The notes: generated by a model not told the origin, from the letters alone. A stretch of DNA of 55,876 nucleotides from Patescibacteria group bacterium (GCA_038063975.1 JBBTTY010000041.1:1-55876), one strand, 5' to 3'. Positions 4,642-52,443 are shown, numbered from the stretch's first letter. Program-made: numbers and translations.

Positions 4642-4668
4642 AAAAAATTTTGTATATTCTAAATAATG

Positions 4669-4763
4669 AAAAACATCAGATATAGTTTTGCGCTACTCGG
4701 GACGGGACCCTTGCCTAAGGGCAACCCCATCCCTCCGTTGCTCAAACTATATCTGATGTTTTT
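4669..4763 (+). repeat. Family-1 nested hairpin element, copy A (20-bp AT-rich stem + 55-nt GC-rich core)
   Basis: AAAAACATCAGATATAGTTT pairs with AAACTATATCTGATGTTTTT; core 4689-4743 is 54/55 identical to 36134-36188. Confidence 0.85.
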
Positions 4764-6003
4764 TTTATCACTTCTTTTTTTCACTCTCCCTGTTTTTGCC
4801 GAGTCTGTAGACGAATTGCGACAAAAAATTTCTGATAACAATAAAAAAATAGAAGATTTGCAAAATCAGATAGAACAGTACTCGACTCTACTCAATTCAA
4901 CTTCAAAAGAAGCTCAAACCCTCAAAAGCGCTCTGGCCACTCTCGAATTGACCCAGAAAAAATTGGAAGCCAGTCTGGCTTTGACCTCGACTCAAATATC
5001 AAAAACGAAACAGACTCTTACAGGTCTAAACGACGATATAAACGAGGCGGAAAAAAGTATAAATAAGGCTCTAGTGGTTATAGGCGAGAATATACGTATC
5101 ACCAATATGACAGAATCACAGTCGGTTGTAGAAGAACTGCTTGGCAACAAAAGCATCTCCGAAACTTGGAACTATGTGAACGCTCTCCATGCCATTCAGA
5201 GCAGGATAAAAATTGACCTAGAAAATTTGCGCGATTTGCGTTCGACTCTAGCCATAAAGATGGATCAGACCATAGGCGAAAAAACAAAATTGGAAACATA
5301 TCAAAAAAATCTCTCCGATCAGAAATCAGTGGTGGTCAATACCAAACAACAAAAAGACAAATTACTCAAAGACACCCAGAGCAAAGAATCAAATTACAAA
5401 ATCATTCTTACCGAAAAAATAAAACAAAAAGAAATTTTTGAAAAAGAACTTTTTGCCTATGAATCAAAACTGAAAATCGCCATTGATCCGTCAACTATAC
5501 CGAGCGCGAGAGCAGGGGTTCTATCATGGCCTCTCGATAAAGTCTTTATAACTCAATATTTCGGCAAATCATTTTCAGCCAAACGTCTTTACGTTTCTGG
5601 CACGCATAATGGCGTAGATTTTCGAGCTTCTATAGGCACCCCAATCAAAACAGCTCTCTCGGGTACGGTGACAGAGATGGAAGCCATTCGTGCCAAAAGT
5701 GGCTGTCAATATGGCAAATTTGTCCTCATAAAACACCCAAATGGTCTTTCTACCATATATGGCCACCTCTCTGTTGTATCCGTACAGCTTGGAGATACGG
5801 TCATAACGGGCGATACCATAGGTTATAGTGGCGATACGGGATACGCCACAGGCCCACATCTCCACTTTGGTTTATACATCACCCAAGGCATTCGCATAGT
5901 CGATTCGAGCTCTCTCGGCTCGTCACGCTGCACAGGTATAAAAACTGTCGCTGCGCCCCCAACTGCATATCTCGATCCGACGGCGTATTTGCCGAAGTTG
6001 TAA
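4756..6003 (+). CDS. M23 family metallopeptidase with N-terminal coiled coil (EnvC-like)
   Basis: HNGVDF and GPHLHFGLY LytM-type motifs; long coiled-coil region; signal peptide MFFLSLLFFTLPVFA begins at ATG 4756; ATG 4666 would translate the repeat element. Confidence 0.8.
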   Translation: MFFLSLLFFTLPVFAESVDELRQKISDNNKKIEDLQNQIEQYSTLLNSTSKEAQTLKSALATLELTQKKLEASLALTSTQISKTKQTLTGLNDDINEAEKSINKALVVIGENIRITNMTESQSVVEELLGNKSISETWNYVNALHAIQSRIKIDLENLRDLRSTLAIKMDQTIGEKTKLETYQKNLSDQKSVVVNTKQQKDKLLKDTQSKESNYKIILTEKIKQKEIFEKELFAYESKLKIAIDPSTIPSARAGVLSWPLDKVFITQYFGKSFSAKRLYVSGTHNGVDFRASIGTPIKTALSGTVTEMEAIRAKSGCQYGKFVLIKHPNGLSTIYGHLSVVSVQLGDTVITGDTIGYSGDTGYATGPHLHFGLYITQGIRIVDSSSLGSSRCTGIKTVAAPPTAYLDPTAYLPKL

Positions 6004-6502: not shown

Positions 6503-7393
6503 TTACTTTGTTGGAGGAGAATTAAATTCGGAATCCAACAAACCAGCCCGAGCCAAAAGCAAAATGTACACATCCGCATGTGCCAGCCGACACATATCGT
6601 TGCTACGTCTGACATTATGATAGTAATCATATATCCACTCCCCTGCAGGCTTGAGAACGAGACCGTAGGAAAATACGACCCTGTGAAGAGTTTCAATTAC
6701 GGGAAATTTACCGAAATTATCCTTGTAATGTGCATTCCAACAGGCCGTGAGGAGTGCTTTGGGATTCGTAGAGAACAGAGAATCGAGGATTTTTGGCATG
6801 AACGCTTGTCTATGCAAACTCAATTGTTCAATCAACTTACATTCGAGATTTCCGTATGAGCTTGAACCATAACCTATCTCTTTTTGACAAGTCAGAAGAT
6901 AACAGAGTTTCTCGCAACCTTTTGCAAGTGCTGTTGCTGTATTCTTATCTGAAGGAGATTTACCGGGAGGGATATTAATAAAGCAGTAATCACCGTCGAT
7001 ACTGAAGAAACTAATCATCGTGGCACATAATTCTGGTTGTTCAATTATAAGTTTTGAGATCACCCGATTAAATTCCAGAGGTCCTGGACCAGAATAGATA
7101 TCAATCGAATTTTGTTTCTCGAAAAACTGATATGCCAGTATTCCCCGAGCGAGTTTATGGACTTTATCCGATTCGCCGTTTCCATAGATGGCTTTTCTGA
7201 TAAGAAAAATAAGCCGTTTGGCGTATTCTTTTGCGCACACTTCTGGACTAGATCTCCCGGCAATGAGCTCCCCAATATCTGGCAAGAGAGCGTGGAGAAG
7301 GCCCATTTTCTCCGCCAAAGTTATTTCCTCTACATGGTATCGTTCGCGCCATTTATCAAACATACCAATTTTACTGACATCGACGTCATTCAT
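6503..7393 (-). CDS. Hypothetical protein (296 aa), no recognised domain
   Basis: Long ORF with its own terminator; cytoplasmic-looking, Cys-rich, no motif I can name. Confidence 0.6.
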   Translation of the reverse strand: MNDVDVSKIGMFDKWRERYHVEEITLAEKMGLLHALLPDIGELIAGRSSPEVCAKEYAKRLIFLIRKAIYGNGESDKVHKLARGILAYQFFEKQNSIDIYSGPGPLEFNRVISKLIIEQPELCATMISFFSIDGDYCFINIPPGKSPSDKNTATALAKGCEKLCYLLTCQKEIGYGSSSYGNLECKLIEQLSLHRQAFMPKILDSLFSTNPKALLTACWNAHYKDNFGKFPVIETLHRVVFSYGLVLKPAGEWIYDYYHNVRRSNDMCRLAHADVYILLLARAGLLDSEFNSPPTK

Positions 7394-9310: not shown

Positions 9311-9431
9311 CTGCAATGTTGCTGAAATGCTTGCGAGCGGAGACTCTCGGAGCGCGGGCGCGAGAGTGAGCTGACGTGCCAGCAGGCACGTACAGCGTGC
9401 TCTGCGAGCAAGCATTCCAGCAACATTGTAG
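9311..9431 (+). repeat. Family-2 nested hairpin element, copy 1 (24-bp stem + three-way-junction core)
   Basis: CTGCAATGTTGCTGAAATGCTTGC pairs with GCAAGCATTCCAGCAACATTGTAG; core shares GGAGAC..TCGGAG..GAGAGTGAG..CAGCAG..CGTGCTC with 19571-19707 and 52321-52443. Confidence 0.85.
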
Positions 9432-9459
9432 GTGAAAGAAAGTATACTTTCTTTCACCT
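9430..9459 (-). terminator. Perfect 30-nt palindrome directly after ctp stop
   Basis: AGGTGAAAGAAAGTATACTTTCTTTCACCT. Confidence 0.5.
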
Positions 9460-9461
9460 AT

Positions 9462-14601: not shown

Positions 14602-14704
14602 TAATATCTCCTTTTATCAAAATCCTAACACAATAATTTAAAAAATCAAAGTTTACGAAATCGATTATGTAAAATATGTAAAAAAACTATACCTGCCGTT
14701 TTTT

Positions 14705-15703
14705 TTACTTCTTCCTCTTCAAAACTTTCATGACGGCGGTTTTTATGTGAGAAGTTCCCATGCCGTAATGTTCTACGAGCTCCACTGGCGTGCCTGATTG
14801 GCCAAATTTGTCGCAGATGCCTATAAATTCAATCGGCACAGGTAAATTTGAGGCGAGCAATTCAGCAATTGCACTTCCCATACCTCCGGCAATCTGATGC
14901 TCTTCTACTGTGACGATGGCACCGGTAGATTTCGCCACTGCCAATATTATTTTCTCGTCGAGAGGTTTTATAGTAGATAGATTGACAACAGTCACACCGA
15001 CTTTTTCTTTTTCCAATTCTCTGGCGACCATGAGCGCTCGGTAAACGAGAGCTCCTGTGGCTATGATAGCGACGTCTGGTTTACCTGTAATCGGTTCAAA
15101 ATAGATTTGCGCCTTGCCTATTTCAAAAGGCGTATTTTCGGTCGTTATAACGGGCGTTTTGTCCCGAATAAGACGTATATATATAGGTGTTTTTGTCTTC
15201 GCGGCCTCAATAGTCGCCTTTTTAGCTTCAATGTGATCACAAGGAGAAATAACCGTCATATTTGGCAAGACGCGCATGAGAGCGATATCTTCAATCGCTT
15301 GGTGTGTGCCACCATCAGGACCCACAGAAACTCCGGCGTGAGAGCCTATAATTTTTACAGGCACATCATTGTATGCGATGGTCGTGCGTATCTGCTCCCA
15401 ATTTCGGCCCGGGGAAAACATGGCATAAGAAGAGACAAAAGGAATTTTGCCCATGGAAGCCATGCCGGAAGCGACGGTTACCAAATTTTGCTCCGCCACA
15501 CCGATTTCTACAAATCTCTTTGGAAATTTTTCGGCGAAAAGGTGCATTTGAGTGGACTCAGTCAAATCAGCGCAGAGCCCAACCATATTTGTGTCTTTTT
15601 CCCCTGCCTCAAGTAAGCCCTGGCCAAAACCTTTTCGAATTGGCACTTGTTCGACGTCTCTGTCGAATACTTTTGGATTTAATTTTTGGTTTTGGGAAAT
15701 CAT
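14705..15703 (-). CDS. Transketolase, C-terminal (pyrimidine-binding + C-terminal domain) subunit
   Basis: FVEIGVAEQNLV, typical Pyr/C-terminal halves of split transketolase, 332 aa. Confidence 0.88.
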   Translation of the reverse strand: MISQNQKLNPKVFDRDVEQVPIRKGFGQGLLEAGEKDTNMVGLCADLTESTQMHLFAEKFPKRFVEIGVAEQNLVTVASGMASMGKIPFVSSYAMFSPGRNWEQIRTTIAYNDVPVKIIGSHAGVSVGPDGGTHQAIEDIALMRVLPNMTVISPCDHIEAKKATIEAAKTKTPIYIRLIRDKTPVITTENTPFEIGKAQIYFEPITGKPDVAIIATGALVYRALMVARELEKEKVGVTVVNLSTIKPLDEKIILAVAKSTGAIVTVEEHQIAGGMGSAIAELLASNLPVPIEFIGICDKFGQSGTPVELVEHYGMGTSHIKTAVMKVLKRKK

Positions 15704-18500: not shown

Positions 18501-19538
18501 TTAAATATATTGCGCCGTTTTTTTGACGTGATCGACGAGAGTATGGGCATACCCCATCTCATTGTCATACCAAGCCAGGACTTTTACGAGATTGTCTCCA
18601 ATTACGCGTGTAAACTTGAGATCGGCGATAGAGGCATACTGCGAACCCAAAATGTCAGATGAGACAAGTTCTTCCTCTGTTACCTCAAAAATTCCTTTCC
18701 AGCGAGCCTCGCCTGAGGCTTTTTTGAGAGCGATGTTTACTTCTTCTACTGTGGTATTTCTTTTTGCTATGAAAGTTATATCGACAATCGAACCGGCGAC
18801 AACGGGTACGCGGATAGCTATGCCATCAAATTTGTTTTGGAACTGTGTCAGAGCTTTGGTTGTGGCCATAGCCGCACCGGTGGATGAAGGCACGATGTTC
18901 ATAGCTGCCGCTCTGCCCTCGCGCCAATCTTTTTTATTCGGTCCATCTACAATTCCCTGGCTCGCCGTGTATCCATGGACAGTATTGAGAACTGCTTTTT
19001 CAATTCCAATTGCTTCGTCTAGTATGGCAAGCAGAGGACTGCCGGCGTTTGTCGTACATGAAGCATTCGAAGTAATATTGCATGTTTTCAACTTGTCTTC
19101 ATTTATACCCATAAGAACGGTTTCGCCGTTTGTGGTAGAATCCCCTTTTGCCGGCGCACTGATCACCACTCTCTTTGCCCCCGCTTCAATATGAATTTTT
19201 GCTTTATCATACGAAGTGAAAAGTCCCGTGGATTCAACGACTACGTCTATATTCATTTTTTTCCACGGTAATTGTGATGGTTCTTTCTGGCTTAAAAAAA
19301 ATATTTTCTTTCCATCAACCAAGAGATATGGATCGCTTCCTTCTACAGCAGTCACATCAAAGGGAAAAGTCTTATAGACCGTGTCGTATTTCAAGAGATA
19401 GGCCATATTTTTAATATCGCCGAGGTCGTTCACGGCGACAATTTCAATTTCTTCGTGTTCGCGAGCTACTTTGAGGAAAGCTCTGCCTATTCTGCCGAAG
19501 CCGTTTATAGCCACTCTAATTTTTCTTTTTGAGAACAT
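18501..19538 (-). CDS. gap: Type I glyceraldehyde-3-phosphate dehydrogenase
   Basis: INGFGRIGR NAD-binding and SNASCTTN catalytic Cys motifs. Confidence 0.93.
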   Translation of the reverse strand: MFSKRKIRVAINGFGRIGRAFLKVAREHEEIEIVAVNDLGDIKNMAYLLKYDTVYKTFPFDVTAVEGSDPYLLVDGKKIFFLSQKEPSQLPWKKMNIDVVVESTGLFTSYDKAKIHIEAGAKRVVISAPAKGDSTTNGETVLMGINEDKLKTCNITSNASCTTNAGSPLLAILDEAIGIEKAVLNTVHGYTASQGIVDGPNKKDWREGRAAAMNIVPSSTGAAMATTKALTQFQNKFDGIAIRVPVVAGSIVDITFIAKRNTTVEEVNIALKKASGEARWKGIFEVTEEELVSSDILGSQYASIADLKFTRVIGDNLVKVLAWYDNEMGYAHTLVDHVKKTAQYI

Positions 19539-19558
19539 GTTTATGATTTATGTGATGA

Positions 19559-19567
19559 ATTATAGCA
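19559..19567 (-). promoter_or_regulatory. Extended -10 element (TGCTATAAT) upstream of gap
   Basis: Reverse complement of ATTATAGCA, 21 nt upstream of the gap ATG; no clear -35. Confidence 0.4.
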
Positions 19568-19570
19568 TTG

Positions 19571-19707
19571 TAAGCAGAAAAGAAAGCGAAAAGAAGTCTG
19601 TGAGTGGAGACTCTCGGAGCACGACGGTGCGAGAGTGAGCTGCTCCGTCAGCAGACGGAGACAGCGTGCTCCACGAGCAGACTTCTTTTCGCTTTCTTTT
19701 CTGCTTA
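19571..19707 (+). repeat. Family-2 nested hairpin element, copy 2 (perfect 30-bp stem + three-way-junction core)
   Basis: TAAGCAGAAAAGAAAGCGAAAAGAAGTCTG pairs perfectly with CAGACTTCTTTTCGCTTTCTTTTCTGCTTA; conserved core 19601-19677. Confidence 0.88.
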
Positions 19708-19749
19708 TTTCTCCCCATATATTCCACAGCTTATCAACATTATTAAACC

Positions 19750-19777
19750 TTGATAGACGTTTTAAAATGAGTATAAT
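19750..19777 (+). promoter_or_regulatory. Sigma70-like promoter of the MerR-like gene
   Basis: TTGATA, 16-nt spacer, TATAAT; 25 nt upstream of ATG 19802. Confidence 0.55.
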
Positions 19778-19801
19778 TTATAACTATATAAATCAAGCTT
19801 T

Positions 19802-20050
19802 ATGGCAGTCTCATTTATGATGATAAAAGATGCAGCGAAGTATTTGGGGGTCTCTCCTCTCACTTTACGTAATTGGGATAAGCAAGGAAAGCTCCCAGCT
19901 ACCCGTCATCCCATGTCAAACTACCGAATTTACAAAATAGAGCATATAGAAAAACTTCTTAAAGACATAGAAGCTGGAATCATTCCCACAAAAGCAAAAC
20001 CGCGTAAAGTTTTGAAAAGAAAACTCACAGTAAAAAGTGTTATAGACTAA
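19802..20050 (+). CDS. MerR/excisionase-family HTH DNA-binding protein (82 aa)
   Basis: IKDAAKYLGVSPLTLRNWDKQGKLPATRHPMSNYRIY matches the MerR/Xis-type winged HTH. Confidence 0.7.
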   Translation: MAVSFMMIKDAAKYLGVSPLTLRNWDKQGKLPATRHPMSNYRIYKIEHIEKLLKDIEAGIIPTKAKPRKVLKRKLTVKSVID

Positions 20051-20084
20051 AGCTATCTCGGTTATCTCGGATACACGAGATAGT

Positions 20085-20187
20085 AAAAAAAGTGGCAGAT
20101 ATAAGTTCTCATTGCTCGGGAGGGGACCCTTGCCTAAGGGCAATCCCTCTCCCTCGCAGCCTCGAACTTATATCTGCCACTTTTTTT
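20085..20187 (+). repeat. Family-1 nested hairpin element, copy B
   Basis: AAAAAAAGTGGCAGATATAAGTTC ... GAACTTATATCTGCCACTTTTTTT around the 55-nt core 20109-20163. Confidence 0.85.
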
Positions 20188-20192
20188 ACCAT

Positions 20193-20555
20193 CTATGAAA
20201 TCGATGTAATCGCTACTTTAAAATACGGCTGACGATGGCCTTGTTTTTTAAAATATTTGCTTTTTGGCTTGTAATGGACGACGGTTACCTTTGGATCGCG
20301 ACCAATTTCCTTTATTTCGCCCTCCACCTTTGAATTGCTCACAAATGGAGTTCCCACTACAGTTTGACTGGCATTATCCACTAAGAGAACTTTATCAAAT
20401 GTAATCTTACCGCCTATAACGTGATTTCCGATGATTTTTTCTATTTTTATGATATTTCCCACACTTACTTTATATTGCTTGCCTCCGGTCATTATAACAG
20501 CAAAAGCACTAGTTCCAATTACCTTTTGCGTCTTTTTTGTTTTATCTGTAGCCAT
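20193..20555 (-). CDS. rplU: 50S ribosomal protein L21
   Basis: FAVIMTGGKQYKVSVGNII core; 120 aa with short N-terminal extension. Confidence 0.88.
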   Translation of the reverse strand: MATDKTKKTQKVIGTSAFAVIMTGGKQYKVSVGNIIKIEKIIGNHVIGGKITFDKVLLVDNASQTVVGTPFVSNSKVEGEIKEIGRDPKVTVVHYKPKSKYFKKQGHRQPYFKVAITSIS

Positions 20556-27858: not shown

Positions 27859-28293
27859 TTAGATCACGCCTACCTGGCCTAATTTTTCAGCCAAAGCGCC
27901 GGCTTTACCCTCAACGCCTTTTTTATAGCTGGTCCATGCTTTTTCGTTCCAGATTTCAACGCGAGATTGCACACCGACCACAGCGACCTTGCCTTTGAGC
28001 TTTGCCCAATTTTGGAGAAAATCCGGAACGAGGATGCGACCGATGGAATCAACGTCCGCCTCGACCGCCCCGCCAAACATAAATCGGCTGAAACTTCGGC
28101 TGTCGGATTGGCCAATAGAGGCTTCCGAGAGCTTTGTTGAAATTTTGTCCCATTCTTTTGGCATGAAGACAAACAGACAATGATCGAGACCGGGCGTGAC
28201 CACTACTCTCTTGCCCATGCTCTCTCTGAATTTTGCCGGCAGAGAAATGCGGTTTTTCTCGTCTATCGAATGTATGTATTCGCCTATGAGCAT
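27859..28293 (-). CDS. mraZ: Transcriptional regulator MraZ
   Basis: Two SpoVT/AbrB-type repeats (DEKNRISLP and DSIGRILVP); ORF-track start 28392 trimmed to ATG 28293 (MLIGEY...). Confidence 0.88.
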   Translation of the reverse strand: MLIGEYIHSIDEKNRISLPAKFRESMGKRVVVTPGLDHCLFVFMPKEWDKISTKLSEASIGQSDSRSFSRFMFGGAVEADVDSIGRILVPDFLQNWAKLKGKVAVVGVQSRVEIWNEKAWTSYKKGVEGKAGALAEKLGQVGVI

Positions 28294-28337
28294 GTATAGT
28301 GGGTTTTTATCGGAGAAAGTGTAATGATGTTCACTTT

Positions 28338-28402
28338 CCACTTTTTCCCACTTGTATAATAGTATATAACACTCTATCCCACTCTGATACATAGTTATCC
28401 AC
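28338..28402 (-). promoter_or_regulatory. Putative MraZ operator: four GTGG(G/A) boxes upstream of mraZ
   Basis: Plus-strand CCAC/CCCAC at 28338-41, 28347-51, 28378-82, 28398-402, spaced about 10, 31 and 20 bp. Confidence 0.35.
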
Positions 28403-28448: not shown

Positions 28449-28494
28449 TAAAAGTGGCAGGTATAAGTTCGAGAACTTATACCTGCCACTTTTT
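28449..28494. terminator. Bidirectional terminator hairpin, empty-site paralog of family-1 stems
   Basis: AAAAGTGGCAGGTATAAGTTC GA GAACTTATACCTGCCACTTTT; stem differs from 20092-20108 by one compensated pair. Confidence 0.8.
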
Positions 28495-28497
28495 TGA

Positions 28498-29964
28498 CTA
28501 CTTAGACGATTTCTTTGGTCGCATCAGAGGGAAAGTTTGCACTTCACGTAGAGGTTTGTCTATGAGAAAGGCAAAAAGGCGCTCGCCAAAGCCAAAACCA
28601 CAGGTAGGTGGCATGCCGTGCTCGAGCATTTCAACGAATTCATAGTCAGCCATCATAGCTTGTTCATCTCCTCCATCTATCAATTTCTGCTGTGTATCAA
28701 AGCGCTTGCGCTGATCTATCGGATCATTCAGTTCCGAATATCCCCTGCCCATTTCACTACCGGCCAATATCGGCTGAAACATTTGAGCGACGTTCTTGCC
28801 TTCTATTGGTTTTGCCAGAGGAGCGACGAGTAGAGGATGATCAATGACAAAAGCCGGCCCGGAAATATTTTTGCGGCAGTATTTCCAAAGGGTGTCGAGT
28901 AGGCGCTCACGATTGTCACCCTCGTATTTTACTTTGAGCGAATCGAGTTTTTTCTTTATTTCAGAATTTTTTGCTTTTTCAATATCCAAACCGGTCTGTC
29001 TCTTTATTTCTTCGGCATATCGGATTTCTTTCCATTCGAGAGCCAGATCAAACGTATGATCTCGAGTTGTAAACTTTGTCGTGCCGAAAACTTCTTTAGC
29101 AATTGTTCTATACAGTTCTTGGACGAGTTTCATACCGTCTCGATAATCGGCGTAAGCCCAATAAAATTCCATATTTGTAAATTCTTGGAGGTGTTCCTGG
29201 CTCGAGCCTTCATTGCGAAACGCCCGTCCAATTTCAAATGTTTTCTGAAAACCGCCAGCCATTAGTCTTTTCTGCCAGAGTTCGCCTACTGATATACGCA
29301 AATAAACATCTATGTTAAAATCATTGTGGTGCGTTTTGAAAGGCCGCGCTTCTGCTCCACCAGTGGTCAATTCGAGCGTAGGTGTTTCAACTTCCAAAAA
29401 TCCTTCTTTTTTCAAAAATTCACGCGTCACATCCCAAAATTTGGCTTTCTTTTTGAATATATCGCGGAGTACTGGTGTCATAATCATATCGAGATAGCGT
29501 TTGCGATATCGCTCATCTTCGTCTGTCAGGCCGTGCCATTTTTCAGGCAGAGGCAAGAGGGATTTTGAAGCCATGGTCCAAGAGGAAACTAGAATACTCT
29601 CTTCGCCTTTTTGGGTAGTAAAGAATATGCCTGTTACACTCACAAAATCACCAATATCCACGGTGTCAGTAAAAAGTTCAAAAAGAAGTTTGGGATTTAA
29701 GGTGTCTTTTTTGAAAACAGCTTGAAGTTTATCCTTGCCGTCGTCTAATACCACAAAAAGAATTGCTCCTTGTCCGCGTATAGCTATGATCCTGCCTGCC
29801 AGTGATATGGTTTTATTCTGTTTTACGAAATCGGCGAAATTCTTGCGTGCATCGCAGAGGCACATGTTCCGAGGAACCTTGGCTGGATAGGGATCCATAC
29901 CCGCTTGCCTTAAAAGCTCGAGTTTTGCAAGTCTCGAAAGTCGTATTTTATCTAGTGGTGCCAT
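28498..29964 (-). CDS. lysS: Lysine--tRNA ligase (class II)
   Basis: OB-fold N-domain, class II motifs (FRNEG, GFGFGERL), 488 aa. Confidence 0.92.
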   Translation of the reverse strand: MAPLDKIRLSRLAKLELLRQAGMDPYPAKVPRNMCLCDARKNFADFVKQNKTISLAGRIIAIRGQGAILFVVLDDGKDKLQAVFKKDTLNPKLLFELFTDTVDIGDFVSVTGIFFTTQKGEESILVSSWTMASKSLLPLPEKWHGLTDEDERYRKRYLDMIMTPVLRDIFKKKAKFWDVTREFLKKEGFLEVETPTLELTTGGAEARPFKTHHNDFNIDVYLRISVGELWQKRLMAGGFQKTFEIGRAFRNEGSSQEHLQEFTNMEFYWAYADYRDGMKLVQELYRTIAKEVFGTTKFTTRDHTFDLALEWKEIRYAEEIKRQTGLDIEKAKNSEIKKKLDSLKVKYEGDNRERLLDTLWKYCRKNISGPAFVIDHPLLVAPLAKPIEGKNVAQMFQPILAGSEMGRGYSELNDPIDQRKRFDTQQKLIDGGDEQAMMADYEFVEMLEHGMPPTCGFGFGERLFAFLIDKPLREVQTFPLMRPKKSSK

Positions 29965-30453: not shown

Positions 30454-30573
30454 AAATGGGAATTATTTGTTATGTGGCCTAGTATATCACAGATTTCTAT
30501 AATTACAAAAATTGCAAAGTTTTTCCACCGAAAAACTTCCGTACTCCACACAAACACGTCCTCTGCTTTTATT

Positions 30574-36074: not shown

Positions 36075-36102
36075 AAAACACGTCCACAAGACGTGTTTTT
36101 TT
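36075..36102 (+). terminator. Intrinsic terminator
   Basis: AACACGTC CACAA GACGTGTT followed by TTTTT. Confidence 0.7.
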
Positions 36103-36107
36103 ACTGA

Positions 36108-36214
36108 AAAACAAAAATAGCAGATATAAGTCTTGCGCTACTCGGGACGGGACCCTTGCCTAAGGGCAACCCCGTCCCTCCGTTGCTCAGACTTATATCT
36201 GCTATTTTTGTTTT
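36108..36214 (+). repeat. Family-1 nested hairpin element, copy C
   Basis: 26-bp stem AAAACAAAAATAGCAGATATAAGTCT / AGACTTATATCTGCTATTTTTGTTTT around the 55-nt core 36134-36188. Confidence 0.88.
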
Positions 36215-36216
36215 CT

Positions 36217-37281
36217 TTAAAACAATTTCACCACATCCCTATAAGTCACAAAAAGCATAAAGAGAATGAGCAAACCAAAGCCTATGGCGTTTATGGTATT
36301 GGCTATTTTTGGAGAAATCATTTTTCTACGCACGGCTTCAATACCAACAAAAAGAATACGTCCGCCATCGAGAGCCGGAAAAGGAATGAGGTTTAGAACG
36401 GCTAAGTTAAGAGATATGAATGCTGTGAATGACAATAGATAGACAAAACCGAGTCTGCCTGCGTCACCTACCAGCCGAGCGATGCCTATGGGACCGGAAA
36501 TTTGAGAGATATCTCCCTGTCCTATGATAGCGTTATAAATGAGCATATAGATTCCGACAACTATATTTTTAGACATATAGACGGTCAGTTTCGCCCCTTC
36601 CCAGAAAGCGATATGAATGGGTAATTTTACTTTACCCACCATATCCATAGATATGCCCACGGCATATCTGTCTCCTAAAACTCCTTTTTCCGGAATGATC
36701 ACAATATCTTTTATATCCGCCAAGTGTTGTATTTGAAATGTCACAGGCCGACCGTCTGAATTTTTGATTACGTCTTGAACAGCGGATACTGTCGAAAAAG
36801 AAAGTATTTCATCTCCAGAAACCAATCCTGCTTTTTCGGCAGGAGAATTGGGCAATGTATCGACGATGATGACATGACTATCTGTAATATATTTCGAATT
36901 ATTTTCTGAAACGCCTGTTGTCATACCTGACATGAAAGCTATTCCAAATAAAAGCCAAGCAAACAAAATATTCATGACGATACCGGCAGCTAAAATGACA
37001 ACTTGTTTCCATCGAGATTTGTGAATAAAGCTACGTGAACTATCAGGTCCGGAAATAGACTGATCATCCGGACTCTCGCCAAATATTTTGACGAATCCAC
37101 CGAAAGGAATGACGTTTATGGAATATACGGTCTCTCCCTTTTTCCAACTCCAAATTTTTGGCGGAAAGCCGAGGCCAAATTCATCTACCCGCACACCACA
37201 TTTTTTGGCGGCGTAAAAATGGCCGAATTCATGGACGAGAATCAAAACCGCCAAAACAATTAAAAATAAAATAATAGTCAC
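36217..37281 (-). CDS. rseP: Site-2 (M50) RIP metalloprotease RseP
   Basis: HEFGHF zinc motif, PDZ domain (PAEKAGLVSGDEIL), C-terminal NLIPFPALDGG. Confidence 0.9.
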   Translation of the reverse strand: MTIILFLIVLAVLILVHEFGHFYAAKKCGVRVDEFGLGFPPKIWSWKKGETVYSINVIPFGGFVKIFGESPDDQSISGPDSSRSFIHKSRWKQVVILAAGIVMNILFAWLLFGIAFMSGMTTGVSENNSKYITDSHVIIVDTLPNSPAEKAGLVSGDEILSFSTVSAVQDVIKNSDGRPVTFQIQHLADIKDIVIIPEKGVLGDRYAVGISMDMVGKVKLPIHIAFWEGAKLTVYMSKNIVVGIYMLIYNAIIGQGDISQISGPIGIARLVGDAGRLGFVYLLSFTAFISLNLAVLNLIPFPALDGGRILFVGIEAVRRKMISPKIANTINAIGFGLLILFMLFVTYRDVVKLF

Positions 37282-39707: not shown

Positions 39708-41243
39708 ATGTCAAAACAAACTGGACAAAAAGCCTTGATTTCCATAGGAGCGATGATCGCTCGATTGCGCGAAGACAGGCGCATGACCCAAGCTAGTCTC
39801 GGTAAAAAAATTAGTACGACCCAGAGCGTCATCGCCCGTATAGAAAAAGGTGAGCAGAATCTGTCTACCGAAACTTTGGCTAAACTTTCAAAAGCACTCA
39901 ATCACGAGATCGTAACCATATCAAAAGGTGGCACGGTTAATTTTCGCATTCATGGCAATCATAAACTCTCTGGCACGATCAAAGTTCGTACCTCAAAGAA
40001 TGGCGCGGTCGGAGTGATGTGCGCTTCCCTGCTCAATAGAGGAACGACTGTCATAAAAAATATTCCAAAAATAGAAGAAGTAAATCGTATGATTGAAGTT
40101 TTTGAATCAATCGGCGTAAAAGCCGAATGGAGAAATCTCGACCTCCACATCACTCCGCCAGAAAAATTTGCCATGAAAAATATAACTTATGATTCCGCAG
40201 CCAGAACCCGAACGGTCATTATGATGATAGGTTCTCTGATTCATCGCCTAAATGTATTTGATTTGCCGCAAATCGGCGGTTGTAAACTAGGCTCACGGAC
40301 CATAAAACCTTATTTCTACGCTCTGGAAAAACTTGGAATAAAGATAGAAACGAGCTCGAGATTTTATAAAATTTCACATAATGGCCTAAAAAGAAATCGT
40401 GAAATTATCATGTATGAAGCTGGAGACACGGTAACTGAAACGCTTCTCATGGCGGTCGCGCTCATACCTGGTAAAACCGTTATCAAATTCGCTTCGGCAA
40501 ATTATCAAGTACAGGATGTATGTTTTTATCTCGAATCACTCGGTGTAAAGATCGATGGTGTGGGCACTTCTGTCATGACCGTGCATGGTATCCCAGGTCC
40601 CATAAAAAAAGATGTTCGGTATTTTCTCTCCGAAGACCCTATAGAAGCCATGTCTCTCTTGACAGTCGCTATCGTTACGAAGTCTTCTATTACTATAGAG
40701 CGGTGTCCTATCGATTTTCTCGAACTCGAACTTTTGAAACTAGAAAAAATGGGTTTCAGATATAAAATTTTGAAGAGATATAAAGCCGAGAATGGCAAAA
40801 CAAATCTCGTTGACATAAAAACTTTTTTGGGGAAACTCCACGCTCTGGACGAAAAAATTCATGCCCTGCCCTATCCAGGCATAAATATGGACAATCTCCC
40901 GTTTTTTGCAATCATCGGTACGCAAGCGGAGGGAGAAACATTCATTCATGATTGGGTTTATGAGAAACGCGCTATATATTACAAAGAACTCGACAAATTG
41001 GGTGCTGAAACAATCCTCGCAGATCCTCATCGGTTTTATGTCAAAGGTCCGACAAAACTGAAAGCCACTGAAATCCTCTGTCCTCCCGCTCTGCGACCTT
41101 CTGTCATTATCATGATAGGCATGCTGGCCGCTGAAGGAACTTCTATATTACGCAATGTATATAATATAAATCGTGGATACGAAGATTTGGCTCACCGATT
41201 GAACTCTCTAGGTGCAAAGATTGAGGTCTTTAGGGATTTGTAG
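39708..41243 (+). CDS. murA: XRE-type HTH domain fused to UDP-GlcNAc 1-carboxyvinyltransferase (MurA)
   Basis: aa ~10-70 MTQASLGKKISTTQSVIARIEKGEQNLSTETLAKL (HTH_XRE); remainder aligns to MurA incl. TSKNGAV (Lys22 site) and GGCKLGSR (catalytic Cys loop). Confidence 0.8.
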   Translation: MSKQTGQKALISIGAMIARLREDRRMTQASLGKKISTTQSVIARIEKGEQNLSTETLAKLSKALNHEIVTISKGGTVNFRIHGNHKLSGTIKVRTSKNGAVGVMCASLLNRGTTVIKNIPKIEEVNRMIEVFESIGVKAEWRNLDLHITPPEKFAMKNITYDSAARTRTVIMMIGSLIHRLNVFDLPQIGGCKLGSRTIKPYFYALEKLGIKIETSSRFYKISHNGLKRNREIIMYEAGDTVTETLLMAVALIPGKTVIKFASANYQVQDVCFYLESLGVKIDGVGTSVMTVHGIPGPIKKDVRYFLSEDPIEAMSLLTVAIVTKSSITIERCPIDFLELELLKLEKMGFRYKILKRYKAENGKTNLVDIKTFLGKLHALDEKIHALPYPGINMDNLPFFAIIGTQAEGETFIHDWVYEKRAIYYKELDKLGAETILADPHRFYVKGPTKLKATEILCPPALRPSVIIMIGMLAAEGTSILRNVYNINRGYEDLAHRLNSLGAKIEVFRDL

Positions 41244-41255
41244 GATACTTTAATC

Positions 41256-47745: not shown

Positions 47746-48312
47746 ATGAAAAATTATGCTAGCCGGACACATTCGGAAATGCTAGATGTGCTCATGGATG
47801 CTAAATCTCCAGGGCCTGAAATTTACTATTATATGGTTCGTGGTGGCAAGGAAAAGACAAACATTACAATTCTGGAACCAGGCATAATTGGTGACGAGTA
47901 TATAAAAACATACGGTCACTATCATGTAGGAAAACTAGACGAGACTTATACAATTCTTCAAGGAAAAGGTGTGATCGTCATGCAAACGAGAAAAATTGAT
48001 GAAAAAGGAAAACCGCTAGACGAAGAAATTGAAACTTTTAGAGCGATTAGCGTAAAAACTGGAGATAGGGTTTTCATTCCGAGCGGAGCGGGTCATTTGG
48101 CCATAAATACCGGCGAAACATGGTTCGTTACTTCAGACGACAGTCCGGTCAATTTTCTAGAAAAAGATCCTATCAGTTTACCTGGACACGCCGATTACGG
48201 CCCCTTCAAACGACTCCACGGCGCTGCCTATTATGTCATCAAAAAAAATAACGAACCTACTCTCGTGAAAAATCCTCTTTATAAAGTAATTCCTAAAGCA
48301 AAAATAGAATAA
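47746..48312 (+). CDS. Cupin-type glucose-6-phosphate isomerase (archaeal cPGI-like)
   Basis: 188 aa, TYGHYH and PSGAGHLAINTG cupin metal-site motifs as in Pyrococcus-type PGI. Confidence 0.65.
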   Translation: MKNYASRTHSEMLDVLMDAKSPGPEIYYYMVRGGKEKTNITILEPGIIGDEYIKTYGHYHVGKLDETYTILQGKGVIVMQTRKIDEKGKPLDEEIETFRAISVKTGDRVFIPSGAGHLAINTGETWFVTSDDSPVNFLEKDPISLPGHADYGPFKRLHGAAYYVIKKNNEPTLVKNPLYKVIPKAKIE

Positions 48313-48426
48313 AAAATACAAGTACAAGCTAATCGAGAACCTCCGCAGGGAAGGATTTGTCATAGGTCTGTCCTTGACAAATCCGACCCGAGGACTGTTC
48401 GAGAGTAGTTTGTACTTGTATTTTTT
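48311..48426. repeat. Long nested hairpin (21-bp AT-rich stem, GC-richer branched core), singleton
   Basis: AAAAAATACAAGTACAAGCTA pairs with TAGTTTGTACTTGTATTTTTT; inner 10-bp hairpin GGATTTGTCA/TGACAAATCC. Confidence 0.8.
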
Positions 48427-48429
48427 ATA

Positions 48430-50778
48430 TTACAGTTTGTAGAGTTTTTTAATATAATCATCAAGCATTCTTTTTGTAGTAAACTTTTTCTCTACCATAG
48501 ACATAGTTTTTTTCATACGTCTAATCCACTGATGAGGTGTATTGTTTTCTCTTTTATAAAATAATGGTGTTACTTCTTTTTCTAGAAAATTATACATGGC
48601 CGAGGCCGTGTTTTCTTCGGGCAAGATCCAGCCGATGTTTTTCCATTTTACTTCCTCTATCCAGCCATCACTAATACTCATTTGAAGTGTACCGTTTAAT
48701 CCAGCTTTCATACCACTCGTGCCACAAGCTTCTTTACCTCGAAAAGGAGTGTTTAGCCAGATGTCCGCACCAGCCACTAGTTTGTGGGCTAGGGATATAG
48801 AATAGTCTGGTATATAGGCGATTTTGTTTTTCCATTTTGGATTGTTTGTCAGAGTGCGGATGCGATCCAAAGCGTTCTTCGCACTGACGTCGTTGTTGTA
48901 AACATTGCCGGAAATGATTAATTGCAGAGAATGAATTCCGAAACAAATTTTTTCCAGTCTTTCTATATCGGATATGAGTAGTTCTGGTCGTTTGTAGGCA
49001 ACAAAACGTCTGGCCCAGACAACTGTGCAAGTATTTTGATCGAGAGTAGAGCCTGTTTTGGCATTTGTGTAATCAATCAGTTCTTTGCGAAGTTTCGATT
49101 TCACCTGCCAGATTTTTTCATCGGTTAATTTTTGTCTATCATTTCCCCACTCTCTGCCAAACCATCTGTCTCTGTAAACGCCATTTGTAATAGATATGAG
49201 ACGACTTTTTGGATGAACTTTCTTTTCGAACTTTGCGTGGAGAATACTCACAGCATTCCGACGTATAGCTGTATTCAAGAGAAAATGGGTGGCAGAAAAG
49301 ACGCGCACCTCAGGATCGACACCTAGAGAGAATAATTCTTCGGCAGAAACACCGAGACTATGAAAATATGGCCCAAAATAACGCATAAAATCGCTTTCTT
49401 CTATTTTTACGCCGGCTTGAGAAAAGATAGTATGTTTTGTCGCTACTATTTTTTTGCGTATCTCTTTTACAGCCTTTAGGATATTTTTATCTTTAAAGGA
49501 AGAAGCAGAGCGAGCGATCAATTCCAGAGTGGTAAATGCGGTATGGCCTTCATTCAAATGATATAGATGTGGCGAAATATGAAGTGTTTGGAGCATTCTG
49601 GCGCTACCCACACCTAAAACTAAATCTTGTCTTACCCACGTATAATCATCCATGGCATAGATAGTTGACAAGATTTTCCGTGATTCTTCATCATTTTCTT
49701 CTATATCTGTATCTAAGAGGATAAGCCAAGTGTTTTGCCCAAAGTTTCTGGCGTAAGCGCGAGCTTTGATAGCTTTATTTTCAAAGGGAATTTCTATGAC
49801 CAGCGGCTTGCCATTTATGGTTATGAGCGAATATTTGTTTTGTTTTATGTCTTTGTTTTTATGACTGTACCATAATCCTACGAAAACCATGGGCAAAGCC
49901 CTATCATTTGCTTCATAGAGAAAATCTGCCGCCAATACTCCCAGGCCTCCGGCATAAGTCAGGGAATCGTCGTCGAGGGCGTATTCGGCTGATATAAAAG
50001 CCACAGGTTCTCTCTGGTCATATTTTATAGAACTTGCTTCTATGGTTTTTGGCGCTTGGAGAAAATCTCCCATAATTTTCTGGGTGTTTTCCGGCCCTCT
50101 AGTTTCCATCACTTTTATACCCACATTTTTTACAGGATTGTCATTACCTTCAGGAAAGAGAGCATCACCGACAAACACGACAGAATCTCTAGGCAGTTTT
50201 GTATATTCAATAATTTTTCGCAAGCCGAAAGCTTTATCAATGCCATCATTTGTCACATCGATAGAAGTGGTACCTCCGATTTTCAACTCCAAGCCTGACA
50301 GCAGTGGCGAAAGTTTTTCCACCAAAATTGTTCGTTTTTTCTGATCTGGATCCCATAAGTGCTTCAGATCGGCTGGAGTATCTTTGCCTAGAGCTGAATA
50401 AGTCATACCAGAATCTCTGTCGTCCAACAATGGTTCTAATTCTTTTTCGCTAATGGCGAGAATTTGCCTGAAAGCCCTGCGTACACGCACCTTATCTCTG
50501 CTTGCCAGTTTTTCGGCATATATTCTCTGCCAGCCTCCTCTATATACCCAGAGTTCTGCGCCACTAGTTGTGAGAATGTAGAGATTTGTCAATTCTCTCA
50601 CAGTGGCAGTCAGAGGTTTTAGAAGTTCTGATTCAAATTGTTTGAAAGACGCCCCAGATATAACTGCTACCTTTGTCTGCTTTAAAAGCTCGCATAGGAG
50701 AGATGCCGTTTCTTCCATAATTGGCGCCCTGCTTTCCGTGAGAGTATTGTCTAGGTCAAATACGATAAGTTTCGGCAT
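48430..50778 (-). CDS. HAD-IIB (PMM/Cof-like) phosphatase/mutase domain fused to alpha-glucan phosphorylase (GT35)
   Basis: N-terminal FDLDNTLT, VISGAS, GDALFPEGNDNP HAD motifs; C-terminal YAGGLGVLAADF and EACGTSGMKAGLNG (PLP Lys); start trimmed to ATG 50778 because 50779-50856 overlaps tRNA-Asn. Confidence 0.8.
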   Translation of the reverse strand: MPKLIVFDLDNTLTESRAPIMEETASLLCELLKQTKVAVISGASFKQFESELLKPLTATVRELTNLYILTTSGAELWVYRGGWQRIYAEKLASRDKVRVRRAFRQILAISEKELEPLLDDRDSGMTYSALGKDTPADLKHLWDPDQKKRTILVEKLSPLLSGLELKIGGTTSIDVTNDGIDKAFGLRKIIEYTKLPRDSVVFVGDALFPEGNDNPVKNVGIKVMETRGPENTQKIMGDFLQAPKTIEASSIKYDQREPVAFISAEYALDDDSLTYAGGLGVLAADFLYEANDRALPMVFVGLWYSHKNKDIKQNKYSLITINGKPLVIEIPFENKAIKARAYARNFGQNTWLILLDTDIEENDEESRKILSTIYAMDDYTWVRQDLVLGVGSARMLQTLHISPHLYHLNEGHTAFTTLELIARSASSFKDKNILKAVKEIRKKIVATKHTIFSQAGVKIEESDFMRYFGPYFHSLGVSAEELFSLGVDPEVRVFSATHFLLNTAIRRNAVSILHAKFEKKVHPKSRLISITNGVYRDRWFGREWGNDRQKLTDEKIWQVKSKLRKELIDYTNAKTGSTLDQNTCTVVWARRFVAYKRPELLISDIERLEKICFGIHSLQLIISGNVYNNDVSAKNALDRIRTLTNNPKWKNKIAYIPDYSISLAHKLVAGADIWLNTPFRGKEACGTSGMKAGLNGTLQMSISDGWIEEVKWKNIGWILPEENTASAMYNFLEKEVTPLFYKRENNTPHQWIRRMKKTMSMVEKKFTTKRMLDDYIKKLYKL

Positions 50779-50821
50779 GGGACCATTATATAATATGAAT
50801 CTGATTTTATCCTGAATTGTT

Positions 50822-50897
50822 TGGCTCCTCGGCCTGGACTCGAACCAGGGACCCATCCCTTAACAGGGGATCGCTCTACCAACTGAGCTACCGAGGA
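50822..50897 (-). tRNA. tRNA-Asn (anticodon GUU), CCA encoded
   Basis: Reverse complement folds as a 76-nt cloverleaf: acceptor TCCTCGG/CCGAGGA, anticodon loop CTGTTAA, T-loop TTCGAGT. Confidence 0.9.
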
Positions 50898-52324: not shown

Positions 52325-52443
52325 AATCGCAAGAATAGTTGCTTGAGGAGACCTTCGGAGGACGCGAAGGCGTCCGAGAATGAGACGCCCCGCCAGCAGG
52401 CGGGGATGTCGTGCTCCGAAAGTAACTATTCTTGCGATTTTAT
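52321..52443 (+). repeat. Family-2 nested hairpin element, copy 3 (divergent)
   Basis: ATAAAATCGCAAGAATAGTT pairs with AACTATTCTTGCGATTTTAT; overlaps the stop codons of both convergent flanking genes. Confidence 0.85.

What the first reader, a model, noticed from the sequence alone, without database searches (positions are those of the whole stretch)
28449..28494. Apparent empty site: same hairpin stem without the 55-nt module
GTGGCAGGTATAAGTTC-GA-GAACTTATACCTGCCAC (28453-28488) matches the stem of copy B, GTGGCAGATATAAGTTC-[55 nt]-GAACTTATATCTGCCAC. The only stem difference is one compensated pair (G-C versus A-T). The loop here is 2 nt where copy B carries the module. A filled/empty pair of paralogous hairpins suggests two alternatives: the 55-nt module inserts into (or is excised from) the loop of this terminator-type hairpin, or the hairpin itself is a dispersed repeat with an optional core. 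The compensated substitution shows selection on the stem.
Basis: partly seen in the sequence, partly recalled or inferred. Interest (0 to 1): 0.62.

Follow-up and report, generated by a model that had tools for sequence, protein, structure and literature searches.

The report
Core-less copy of nested-hairpin repeat
The 44-base perfect hairpin right after the lysS gene is a real "stem-only" copy of an undescribed family of about 100-base hairpin-within-hairpin repeats that sit at gene ends in a small group of groundwater Patescibacteria; sister genomes carry a filled hairpin at the same spot.

Summary
Window 28450-28493 is a perfect 21-bp palindrome with a 2-nt loop, 3 nt after the lysS stop codon. 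Its arms match copy B (20088-20108 / 20164-20184) at 20 of 21 positions, with one compensated pair.

It belongs to a dispersed family I call F1. F1 is an A-run, a 15-20 bp arm (nnGCAGRTAYArAGTYY), a 54-56 nt GC-rich core, the second arm and a T-run.
- I found 20 different filled copies and this one empty copy in 233 kb from at least 5 related genomes.
- 27 of 35 pairs show compensatory change.
- 20 of 21 copies lie within about 30 nt of a stop codon, in either orientation.

At the orthologous lysS site, two sister genomes have F1 arms plus a variant core. A third has F1 arms with a complete element of another family nested at the apex. Three outgroups have plain terminators.

The core is never found outside a long palindromic stem. 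No transposase lies in the window, and no filled/empty polymorphism appears in 8 metagenome runs, although the 2-nt loop is flipped in one strain.

Most likely this is a terminator-type hairpin that lost its core by a symmetric apical deletion (about 0.55). The rival is an unfilled hairpin that elements colonise at the apex (about 0.25). No Rfam, literature, phage or plasmid match was found.

The parts
28450..28493 (.). Core-less ('empty') F1 hairpin. Left arm 28450-28470, loop GA 28471-28472, right arm 28473-28493. It starts 3 nt after the lysS stop codon and is followed on the lysS-sense (-) strand by TTTTATAATGTTTTTTT.
   Evidence: terminator-like on the - strand: 20 pairs, loop 4; fold; the F1 covariance model hits it at 37 bits, E about 5e-7; it is the only core-less hit in 233 kb; arm 16/17 identical to B.
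28498..29964 (-). lysS (lysyl-tRNA synthetase class II, 488 aa), the gene whose 3' end the hairpin follows. Its stop codon TAG lies at 28500-28498.
   Evidence: PF00152, PF01336; homologues named lysine--tRNA ligase.
20083..20189 (+). Filled F1 copy B. Arms at 20088-20108 / 20164-20184 (perfect complementarity extends over 20083-20108 / 20164-20189), type-2 core at 20109-20163. It lies between the convergent genes merR-like (19802..20050 +) and rplU (20193..20555 -), 7 nt from the rplU stop.
   Evidence: I4; -68.6/-75 kcal/mol; 97 bits.
36108..36214 (+). Filled F1 copy A. Perfect 26-bp arms and a type-1 core, 6 nt from the rseP stop (36217..37281 -). It sits next to the separate plain terminator of the convergent gene (36080-36102).
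   Evidence: I11; 103 bits.
4669..4763 (+). Filled F1 copy C (arms AAAAACATCAGATATAGTTT, type-1 core). It lies 26 nt after the gltX stop and in frame within the annotated 5' end of the M23 peptidase ORF 4666..6003. It is absent from the orthologous place in L010.
   Evidence: D1; 100 bits.
14680..14706 (-). Solo F1 arm (read on the - strand: TAAAAAAAACGGCAGGTATAGTTTTTTT). It abuts the stop of ORF 14705..15703(-). The core and second arm are missing.
   Evidence: D3; 91% to the L003 arm; alignment.

Best explanation
The palindrome at 28450-28493 is the hairpin of the lysS 3' end. It is a Rho-independent, bidirectional-type terminator structure (A-run, stem, T-run). It is also a core-less member of an undescribed dispersed family, F1, of about 97-105 nt nested-hairpin elements carried by a small clade of groundwater Patescibacteria.

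A full F1 element has four parts:
- an A-run;
- a 15-20 bp AT-rich arm with consensus nnGCAGRTAYArAGTYY;
- a 54-56 nt GC-rich core that folds into a basal helix, an 8-bp G/C helix and an apical 5-bp hairpin;
- the complementary arm and a T-run.

Elements sit directly after stop codons in either orientation. They most likely act at the RNA level as orientation-independent 3'-end hairpins, for termination and perhaps 3'-end protection.

The empty copy most likely came from a B-type ('GTTC|TC', type-2) full element by a symmetric apical deletion. In this model, replication bypasses the stable core hairpin between the CTC triplets that flank the core base (GTT-CTC-ATTG...GCAGC-CTC-GAAC becomes GTT-CTC-GAAC). 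The deletion leaves the whole arm pair intact and still able to terminate.

The arms stay perfectly Watson-Crick paired. The cause is either the need for both strands to fold or copying of one arm from the other by template switching.

Shown: family membership, structure conservation, position after stop codons, and the orthologous filled, nested and plain states. Inferred: terminator function, the direction of change (loss), and the deletion mechanism.
For: Family and structure:
- The 21-mer core scan found 10 loci in 3 Patescibacteria MAGs and 4 metagenome contigs, every one inside F1-type arms.
- The covariance model found 20 distinct filled copies and one empty copy in 233 kb.
- 94.7% of cells are paired. 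27 of 35 pairs show double changes against 11.5 +/- 2.1 in shuffles (0/500) and 5-10 when the partners are slid.

Gene ends:
- 20 of 21 copies lie 0-31 nt from a stop codon, sense:antisense about 11:7.
- The empty copy scores as a terminator on the lysS strand.
- Outgroups L022, L025 and L026 have plain A-run/stem/T-run terminators at the same place.

Evidence for loss:
- The empty arm is 16/17 identical to B, 15/17 to L008 and 14/17 to L002b. All three are type-2 elements, in which this arm type is tied to a core in at least two species.
- Its junction is colinear with B for 24 nt, including CTC.
- Sister genomes L015 and L016 have a core at the orthologous site.
- Empty copies are rare (1 in 21).
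- A solo arm at 14680-14706 shows that F1 copies in this genome do decay by short-repeat deletions.

Deletion of hairpin-forming DNA between short direct repeats at the stem base is established for bacterial palindromes. That statement rests on my own knowledge of the slipped-mispairing literature and was not tested here.
Against: - The direction of change is not resolved. Window, L015 and L016 form an unresolved trichotomy in six gene trees, so gain and loss need similar numbers of events.
- L018/L020 show that something can be placed exactly at the apex of an F1-type stem.
- The empty arms resemble B, not the orthologous arms (10/18, 14/20, 12/18). Loss in situ therefore also needs an earlier replacement or gene conversion by a B-type copy.
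- The CTC microhomology is only 3 nt and is part of the family consensus.
- The 2-nt loop is flipped in strains X6/X7, so the inferred orientation is soft.
- Terminator function is inferred only. No RNA data exist, and the stem has only 7 G-C pairs in 20.
- One F1-like copy (L018 6010-6109) has no A/T runs and sits inside the ftsI-murE operon.
- Copy A sits beside an existing plain terminator, and L016 does without any element there. The elements are therefore not needed for termination everywhere.
Confidence: 0.55

Rival explanations
1. Unfilled target. The stem-only hairpin is the older state, and cores or whole palindromic elements are inserted at the apex of resident hairpins, by an unknown hairpin- or cruciform-specific enzyme or by repair of apex breaks. 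The window keeps the unfilled hairpin. L015 and L016 gained core variant b, and L018/L020 gained a family-3 element.
For: - At the orthologous site, L018/L020 carry F1-type arms (GCGGAAATATAAGTTAT / ATAACTATAATCCGCCGC) with a complete family-3 element inserted exactly at the apex. That element has its own A/T runs and a 28-bp stem, and no F1 core remnant is left.
- Different families occupy the same gene ends in different genomes. After rseP: F1, family 2, or nothing. After rplU: F1 or family 2.
- Complementarity often runs several bp beyond the family-specific sequence, for example AATAAT...ATTATT in L008.
- Apical modules a-e combine with different basal cores and arms.
- Parsimony does not favour loss.
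Against: - The F1 core was never seen outside a long palindromic stem, and in 20 of 21 cases that stem is F1-type.
- The basal core type co-varies with the arm base (TCT/TTT with type 1, TTC/TCC with type 2), as expected if arm plus core is one unit.
- Only one empty hairpin was found in 233 kb, so candidate targets are scarce.
- Whole elements appear in tiny non-palindromic spacers, so a pre-existing hairpin is not required: L003 versus window 41243-41256, and L018 6010-6109 versus a 6-18 nt spacer.
- No enzyme candidate lies in the window.
- No filled/empty polymorphism in 8 runs.
Confidence: 0.25
2. Enzymatic excision or insertion of the 55-nt module by a Y1/HUH (IS200/IS605 or RAYT-like) or similar single-strand transposase acting on the folded hairpin.
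For: - The junction is exact and symmetric, and the arms are left fully intact.
- Near-identical elements (92-94%) lie at non-orthologous loci in species whose coding DNA is only 70-83% identical, which suggests mobility of some kind.
Against: - No HUH, RAYT or other transposase domain appears in any window ORF.
- What differs between non-orthologous sites is the whole arm+core unit, not the module.
- Copy number is low: about 3-8 per genome, and the depth of the collapsed type-1 core unitig is about 17 against a genome depth of about 7. REP/RAYT systems have hundreds of copies.
- There is no conserved 5' tetranucleotide such as GTAG at the element ends.
- No excision joints appear in contigs of X1-X4.
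Confidence: 0.07
3. Gene conversion of the arms only. The lysS hairpin was always a plain terminator, and its arms were overwritten by, or converged on, B-type arm sequence without ever holding a core.
For: - The arms are 16/17 identical to B, 8 kb away in the same genome, but only 10/18 to 14/20 identical to the orthologous arms.
- The mosaic combinations of arms, basal cores and apical modules suggest frequent exchange between copies.
Against: - All four genomes of the clade have F1-type arms at this site, and two of them have a core, so an F1 element was there early.
- Both 21-nt arms would have to be converted while skipping the core that lies between them in the donor.
Confidence: 0.08
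4. Chance resemblance of an ordinary terminator, or an assembly collapse of a filled element.
For: Palindromes do break de Bruijn contigs. Contigs of 5 runs end at the apex.
Against: - The arms match at 20 of 21 positions, and 0 of 100 shuffles reach the observed motif count.
- The covariance model hits it at E about 5e-7.
- Contigs from three independent runs span the empty hairpin, with apex variants of their own.
Confidence: 0.02

Closest known systems
Bidirectional Rho-independent (intrinsic) terminators
   Same: A-run, stem and T-run symmetry; position 0-30 nt after stop codons, often between convergent genes; orientation independence. Outgroup genomes have plain terminators at the same site.
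   Different: Full F1 hairpins are about 45 bp long with a conserved, structured 55-nt apex and form a dispersed sequence family. One copy lacks T/A runs and lies within an operon. Termination was not measured.
REP / BIME / REPIN elements with RAYT transposases (Enterobacteria, Pseudomonas; my own knowledge)
   Same: Short intergenic palindromic repeats at gene 3' ends that form long hairpins, are dispersed in the chromosome and vary in presence between relatives.
   Different: In REP/REPIN the arms are the conserved part and the loop varies. In F1 the apex is conserved (a 21-mer identical in 17 copies) and the arms covary. Copy number is about 3-8 per genome rather than hundreds. There is no GTAG-type end motif, and no RAYT was found in the window (the whole genome was not testable).
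MITE-like terminator-forming repeats: Correia/CREE (Neisseria), RUP/BOX (Streptococcus), ERIC/IRU, SMAG (my own knowledge)
   Same: Palindromic units of about 100 nt, intergenic and close to gene ends, with presence/absence differences between related genomes. They can act as terminators or RNA-stability elements.
   Different: No target-site duplication is visible at three filled versus unoccupied comparisons. Arm similarity fades outward while complementarity stays perfect, instead of sharply bounded terminal inverted repeats. No partner IS is known, and there is no Rfam match.
Rickettsia palindromic elements (RPE; my own knowledge)
   Same: Copy C lies in frame inside the 5' part of a protein-coding ORF (M23 peptidase 4666..6003), as RPEs do.
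   Different: This is one case out of 21. All other copies are intergenic, and there is no sequence relation.
IS1397/ISKpn1 and IS1111/IS110-type insertion into REP palindromes (my own knowledge)
   Same: A precedent for mobile DNA that targets the centre of a chromosomal palindromic unit, like the family-3 element nested at the apex of the F1 arms in L018/L020.
   Different: Those are full insertion sequences that encode a transposase. Here the nested unit is a 140-nt non-coding palindrome, and no enzyme is known.

Membership tests
Intrinsic (Rho-independent) terminator | Stable stem-loop directly followed by a U-tract, downstream of a stop codon | tested here: met
   (20 pairs, 7 G-C, loop 4, tail TTTTATAATG on the lysS strand); the hairpin starts 3 nt after the stop.: -30 kcal/mol.
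Intrinsic (Rho-independent) terminator | Transcripts actually end at the U-tract | not testable with these tools
   No RNA run holds this genome.
F1 nested-hairpin family (defined here) | A-run + arm nnGCAGRTAYArAGTYY + complementary arm + T-run | tested here: met
   37 bits with model R1; 16/17 to B.
F1 nested-hairpin family (defined here) | 54-56 nt GC-rich core (CTCGGGRSGGG ... CCC) between the arms | tested here: not met
   The loop is 2 nt. This absence is what makes the copy 'empty'.
MITE (non-autonomous DNA transposon) | Target-site duplication flanking terminal inverted repeats | tested here: not met
   No direct repeat flanks the element in L003 versus the window, window C versus L010, site A versus L016, or L018b versus window/L015.
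MITE (non-autonomous DNA transposon) | A related autonomous IS with the same ends | not testable with these tools
No transposase was found in the window.
REP/REPIN-RAYT | High copy number with conserved arm sequence and an end tetranucleotide (GTAG-like) | tested here: not met
   3 full copies in 56 kb. The unitig depth implies about 2-3 type-1 copies per genome. The arms vary and have no conserved end motif.
REP/REPIN-RAYT | A RAYT (HUH Y1) gene in the genome, usually flanked by REPs | tested here: inconclusive
   Absent from the window's ORFs. The rest of the genome was not seen.
   All 17 hits of the core 21-mer are inside F1 arms. The one diverged core in a foreign stem is still a complete palindrome.
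Any Rfam RNA family | Covariance-model score at or above the gathering threshold | tested here: not met
   One search found only two tRNAs in the window. In one search the best hit on copy B was a plant miRNA model at 25.7 bits against a threshold of 96.

The most novel reading that the evidence does not exclude
Patescibacteria of this clade carry several families of non-coding palindromic elements that colonise the apical loops of resident hairpins. This builds Russian-doll structures, and the families replace one another at the same gene ends. The stem-only lysS hairpin would be the naked landing pad. That would imply a hairpin- or cruciform-apex-specific insertion route: an unknown enzyme, or templated repair of apex breaks.
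Probability: 0.2. Interest if true: 0.75.

Novelty: new variant of a known kind. Interest (0 to 1): 0.5.

Why it matters
Small intergenic palindromic repeats (REP, Correia, RPE and others) shape transcription and genome plasticity in well-studied bacteria. I found nothing comparable described for the Candidate Phyla Radiation, whose roughly 1-Mb genomes are usually thought to have little room for repeats.

This clade has at least three structured hairpin families packed at gene ends. Their conservation pattern is the reverse of REP-type elements: the apex is conserved and the arms covary.

One orthologous site shows four states across related genomes: plain terminator, stem only, stem plus core, and stem plus a nested foreign element. 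That series is a natural experiment on how terminator hairpins are born, extended, hollowed out and replaced. It also gives simple constructs (empty versus full) for testing what the conserved core adds.

Tried and rejected
- **Rfam.** Gathering thresholds on the whole window and E-value mode on 19500-20300 found nothing beyond two tRNAs.
- **Exact protein look-up.** The window's LysRS is not on record, so I went through homologues instead. One of them, P0006, had no DNA available.
- **One pattern for filled and empty hairpins.** The two large scans therefore went to the core 21/20-mer. Only filled copies were collected genome-wide. Empty copies could be sought only in the 233 kb fetched.
- **Population polymorphism.** Four read-laying runs over the empty site and copies A and B, and one using B itself as bait, found no filled/empty joints. 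Logan contigs drop rare variants and break at the palindrome, so absence is weak evidence.
- **RNA evidence.** No RNA runs were available.
- **Other collections.** Viral contigs, phages and plasmids gave no match.
- **Literature.** Four searches found nothing on such elements in CPR/Patescibacteria.
- **Fold-back origin of the arms.** BLAST of odd arms (L018b, family-2 copies) against all fetched DNA found no donor flank. This is uninformative at the present sample size.
- **Strand of function from G.U versus A.C counts.** There was no clear asymmetry.
- **Gene trees to polarise gain versus loss.** They were unresolved.
- **Palindrome 9429-9460 as a second 'empty' stem.** It is 14/16 identical to a family-2 arm of L015. 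That is roughly a 1-in-10 chance event in this much sequence, so I keep it only as a hint.

Full report
**Observation**

The window (about 41% G+C) reads AAAAGTGGCAGGTATAAGTTC-GA-GAACTTATACCTGCCACTTTT at 28450-28493. This is a perfect 21-bp palindrome with a 2-nt loop.

Copy B carries the same 17-nt arms with one compensated pair, and exactly 55 nt between them (20109-20163). The shared motif CAGRTATAAGT is far above chance: 9 hits against 1.6 expected, with 0 of 100 shuffles reaching that.

As RNA the hairpin folds at -30 kcal/mol on either strand (z = -9 and -14). The simple terminator scan picks it up on the minus strand. It starts 3 nt after the TAG stop codon of lysS (28498..29964, minus strand). 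It is followed by the mraZ promoter and leader.

Contigs assembled independently from three public groundwater runs span it, so it is not an assembly collapse.

There are three filled copies in the window, not two: A at 36108-36214, B at 20083-20189 and C at 4669-4763. There is also a solo arm at 14680-14706 that abuts another stop codon.

The window also holds at least two other families of long palindromes with conserved structured cores:
- family 2, at 9311-9431, 19571-19707 and 52311-52453, with a remnant near 30454-30573;
- family 3, at 48309-48428.

**Origin and relatives**

The DNA occurs in groundwater metagenomes. All ORFs with a Pfam match are housekeeping genes; about ten ORFs have no significant match.

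The invariant core 21-mer GGGACCCTTGCCTAAGGGCAA was found at only 10 places in 3 Patescibacteria MAGs among 185,579 species genomes. It occurs in 4 metagenome contigs and in no viral contig, phage or plasmid.

Every hit has the same anatomy: A-run, arm, core, arm, T-run.

A covariance model built from 19 copies was searched over all 233 kb fetched. It found 20 distinct filled copies and a single core-less one, the hairpin in question.

Rfam has no such family. Four full-text searches found no description of it.

**Structure**

The whole element is one long nested hairpin.
- 94.7% of pair cells are standard pairs.
- 27 of 35 pairs have double (compensatory) changes, against 11.5 +/- 2.1 in shuffles (0/500) and 5-10 when partners are slid.
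- The conservation pattern is unusual. The apex is identical in 17 copies from at least 4 species. The middle of the arm (GCAGATA) is fairly constant. The outermost 3-4 bp and the arm base vary freely but always in a compensated way.
- In the outer helix there are only 3 G.U cells against 72 double changes.

This fits a structure that must pair on both strands. It also fits arms that are copied from each other.

Cores come in two basal types that go with the arm base: type 1 with ..TCT/TTT and type 2 with ..TTC/TCC. There are at least five apical variants, a to e.

**Position**

Twenty of 21 copies lie 0-31 nt from a stop codon, often with the A-run touching it. They occur in both orientations relative to that gene, about 11 sense to 7 antisense.

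This is the behaviour of an orientation-independent 3'-end hairpin, not of a directional RNA gene.

**Orthologous sites**

LysRS homologues led to syntenic contigs of four relatives. After lysS the states are:

| Genome | State after lysS |
|---|---|
| Window | stem only |
| L015 (JAUSGU01) | F1-type arms + 54-56 nt core, apical variant b |
| L016 (CAZVHT01) | F1-type arms + 54-56 nt core, apical variant b |
| L018 / L020 (Hainich / JBBTTH01) | decayed F1-type arms enclosing, exactly at the apex, a complete family-3 element with its own A/T runs and 28-bp arms |
| L025, L026, L022 (LysRS 84%, 78%, 74-77% identical) | plain unrelated terminators |

Other sites also differ between genomes:
- After rseP the window and L020 have F1, L015 has family 2, and L016 has nothing beyond the neighbour's plain terminator.
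- After rplU the window has F1 and L015 has family 2.
- Whole elements, arms included, are present in one genome and absent in another at spacers of 6-18 nt. Examples are L003 versus window 41243-41256, L018 6010-6109 in ftsI|murE, and window C versus L010.
- No target-site duplication is visible in any of these comparisons.
- Near-identical copies sit at non-orthologous loci in different species. B and L008 are 94% identical, but L008 follows rpmG. The surrounding DNA in the syntenic alignments (L003, L010) is only 69-83% identical.

The units therefore move or are exchanged over evolutionary time. What moves is arm plus core.

**Population data**

Contigs of eight runs show no filled allele at lysS and no core-less allele at A or B. 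These are contigs at about 3-10x depth, so this is weak evidence.

The apex itself is variable while the arms are invariant:
- GA in the window;
- TC, the reverse complement and therefore a flipped apex, in X6 and X7;
- 28470 C>A in X1.

In the X6 strain the 50 nt next to the hairpin carry five differences.

**Loss or gain**

Evidence for loss:
- The empty arm is closest to type-2 full elements: B 16/17, L008 15/17, L002b 14/17.
- Its sequence is colinear with B for 24 nt across the junction. It equals B minus the stretch between two CTC triplets.
- Two sister genomes have a core at the site.
- Empty copies are rare.
- A solo arm elsewhere in the window shows decay by short-repeat deletion.

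Evidence for gain:
- The nested element in L018/L020 proves that DNA can land exactly at an F1 apex.
- Six gene trees leave window, L015 and L016 unresolved.
- The empty arms are unlike the orthologous arms (10/18 to 14/20). In-situ loss therefore needs an earlier overwrite by a B-type copy.

I put loss at about 0.55, apex colonisation at about 0.25, and the rest on arm-only conversion or enzymatic excision.

**Mechanism proposed**

Shown: the hairpin, its family, the covariation, the stop-codon adjacency and the orthologous states.

Inferred:
1. The hairpin terminates lysS transcription and perhaps protects the 3' end.
2. The full element does the same, with an added apical module that is read by something sequence-specific, given the invariant 21-mer.
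3. The core was lost when replication bypassed the stable GC-rich core hairpin between the flanking CTC repeats. This is a symmetric deletion that keeps the arms.
4. The arms stay perfectly complementary through selection on both strands, through intra-palindrome template switching, or through both. The flipped loop is a sign of the latter.

**Comparison with known systems**

It works like a bidirectional intrinsic terminator. As a repeat it resembles REP/REPIN, Correia-type MITEs and, for copy C, Rickettsia RPEs.

It fails their defining tests where those could be run: no TSD, no conserved arm or end motif, low copy number, and no transposase in view.

I therefore call it a new variant of the known kind 'intergenic palindromic repeat'. 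It is not a member of any named family.

**Caveats**

- Only 56 kb of this genome and about 177 kb of relatives were examined.
- Empty hairpins could not be searched for in the big collections.
- Function is untested.

Noticed in passing
window 9311-9431, 19571-19707, 52311-52453; remnant about 30454-30573; L015 1917-2023, 18418-18544, 18928-19026; L020 7679-7799; L009 4589-4707; L010 3862-3976: A second dispersed family. It has a three-way-junction core (GAGTGGAGAC - hairpin - hairpin with AGCA loop - CGTGCTCCAC) closed by 20-40 bp perfect arms whose sequence differs between copies. 16 of 28 core pairs covary. Copy 19571-19707 lies between divergent promoters (gap | merR) and has an orthologue in L015 with different hairpin sequences. 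There is no Rfam match.
   Followed up: partly
window 48309-48428; L018 2131-2272 (same element in L019-L021): A third palindromic family (core ...GGATTTGTCA...TGACAAATCC...). In the window it lies between ORFs 47746..48312 and 48430..50856. In L018/L020 it is nested at the apex of the F1-type arms after lysS.
   Followed up: partly
window 9429-9460: A perfect 16-bp palindrome with no loop (TAGGTGAAAGAAAGTA|TACTTTCTTTCACCTA), abutting the family-2 copy at 9311-9431. Its arm is 14/16 identical to a family-2 arm in L015 (GTAGTGGAAAGAAAGT). It may be a second 'stem without core', but the match is within reach of chance.
   Followed up: partly
window 28471-28472 and 28470, in runs X6, X7, X1: The 2-nt loop reads TC instead of GA in a related strain, which is an exact reverse complement (a flipped apex). 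X1 has C>A at the top pair. The 21-nt arms are unchanged while the neighbouring spacer differs at 5 positions. Contigs of five other runs end at the apex.
   Followed up: yes
window 4666-4763 (ORF 4666..6003): F1 copy C is in frame within the annotated 5' end of the M23 peptidase gene (MKNIRYSFALLGTGPLPKGNPIPPLLKLYLM...). The L010 orthologue starts differently and lacks the element. An internal ATG at 4751 lies inside the right arm. This resembles in-frame Rickettsia palindromic elements.
   Followed up: partly
window 14680-14706: A solo F1 arm (AAAAAACGGCAGGTATAGTTTTTTT on the minus strand) directly after the stop of the transketolase C-terminal ORF 14705..15703(-). The core and second arm have been deleted between T-runs.
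   Followed up: yes
L018 6010-6109: An F1-like core (TTCATTCGGGACGG...CCATCCCTCATGAG) inside an unrelated, perfect 28-bp G+C-rich stem without A/T runs. It is inserted in the ftsI|murE spacer, which is only 6-18 nt in the window, L015 and L022. A palindromic element has therefore arrived inside the dcw operon.
   Followed up: partly
window about 28300-28400 (minus strand, upstream of mraZ): The block GTGGATAACTATGTATCAGAGTGGGATAGAGTGTTATATACTATTATACAAGTGGGAAAAAGTGGAAAGTGAACATCATTAC is almost identical in window, L015, L016, L018 and L025, and is more conserved than the flanking genes. It contains repeated GTGGG/GTGGA motifs, probably MraZ operator boxes. The 177-aa ORF call 27859..28392 is probably too long, because relatives have a 144-aa MraZ.
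   Followed up: no
window 53441-54640 (-): A 399-aa ORF of unknown function with a weak PD-(D/E)XK nuclease match (E = 2e-4, 21.8 bits against a cut-off of 22) and N-terminal zinc-ribbon-like hits. It lies about 1 kb from the family-2 copy at 52311-52453. It is the only nuclease-like candidate in the window.
   Followed up: no
window 6503-7393 (-) versus L010 7297-7396: The window has a 296-aa ORF without any Pfam match where the syntenic L010 contig has about 100 nt holding an F1 element. This is a gene-sized presence/absence difference at an element site.
   Followed up: no
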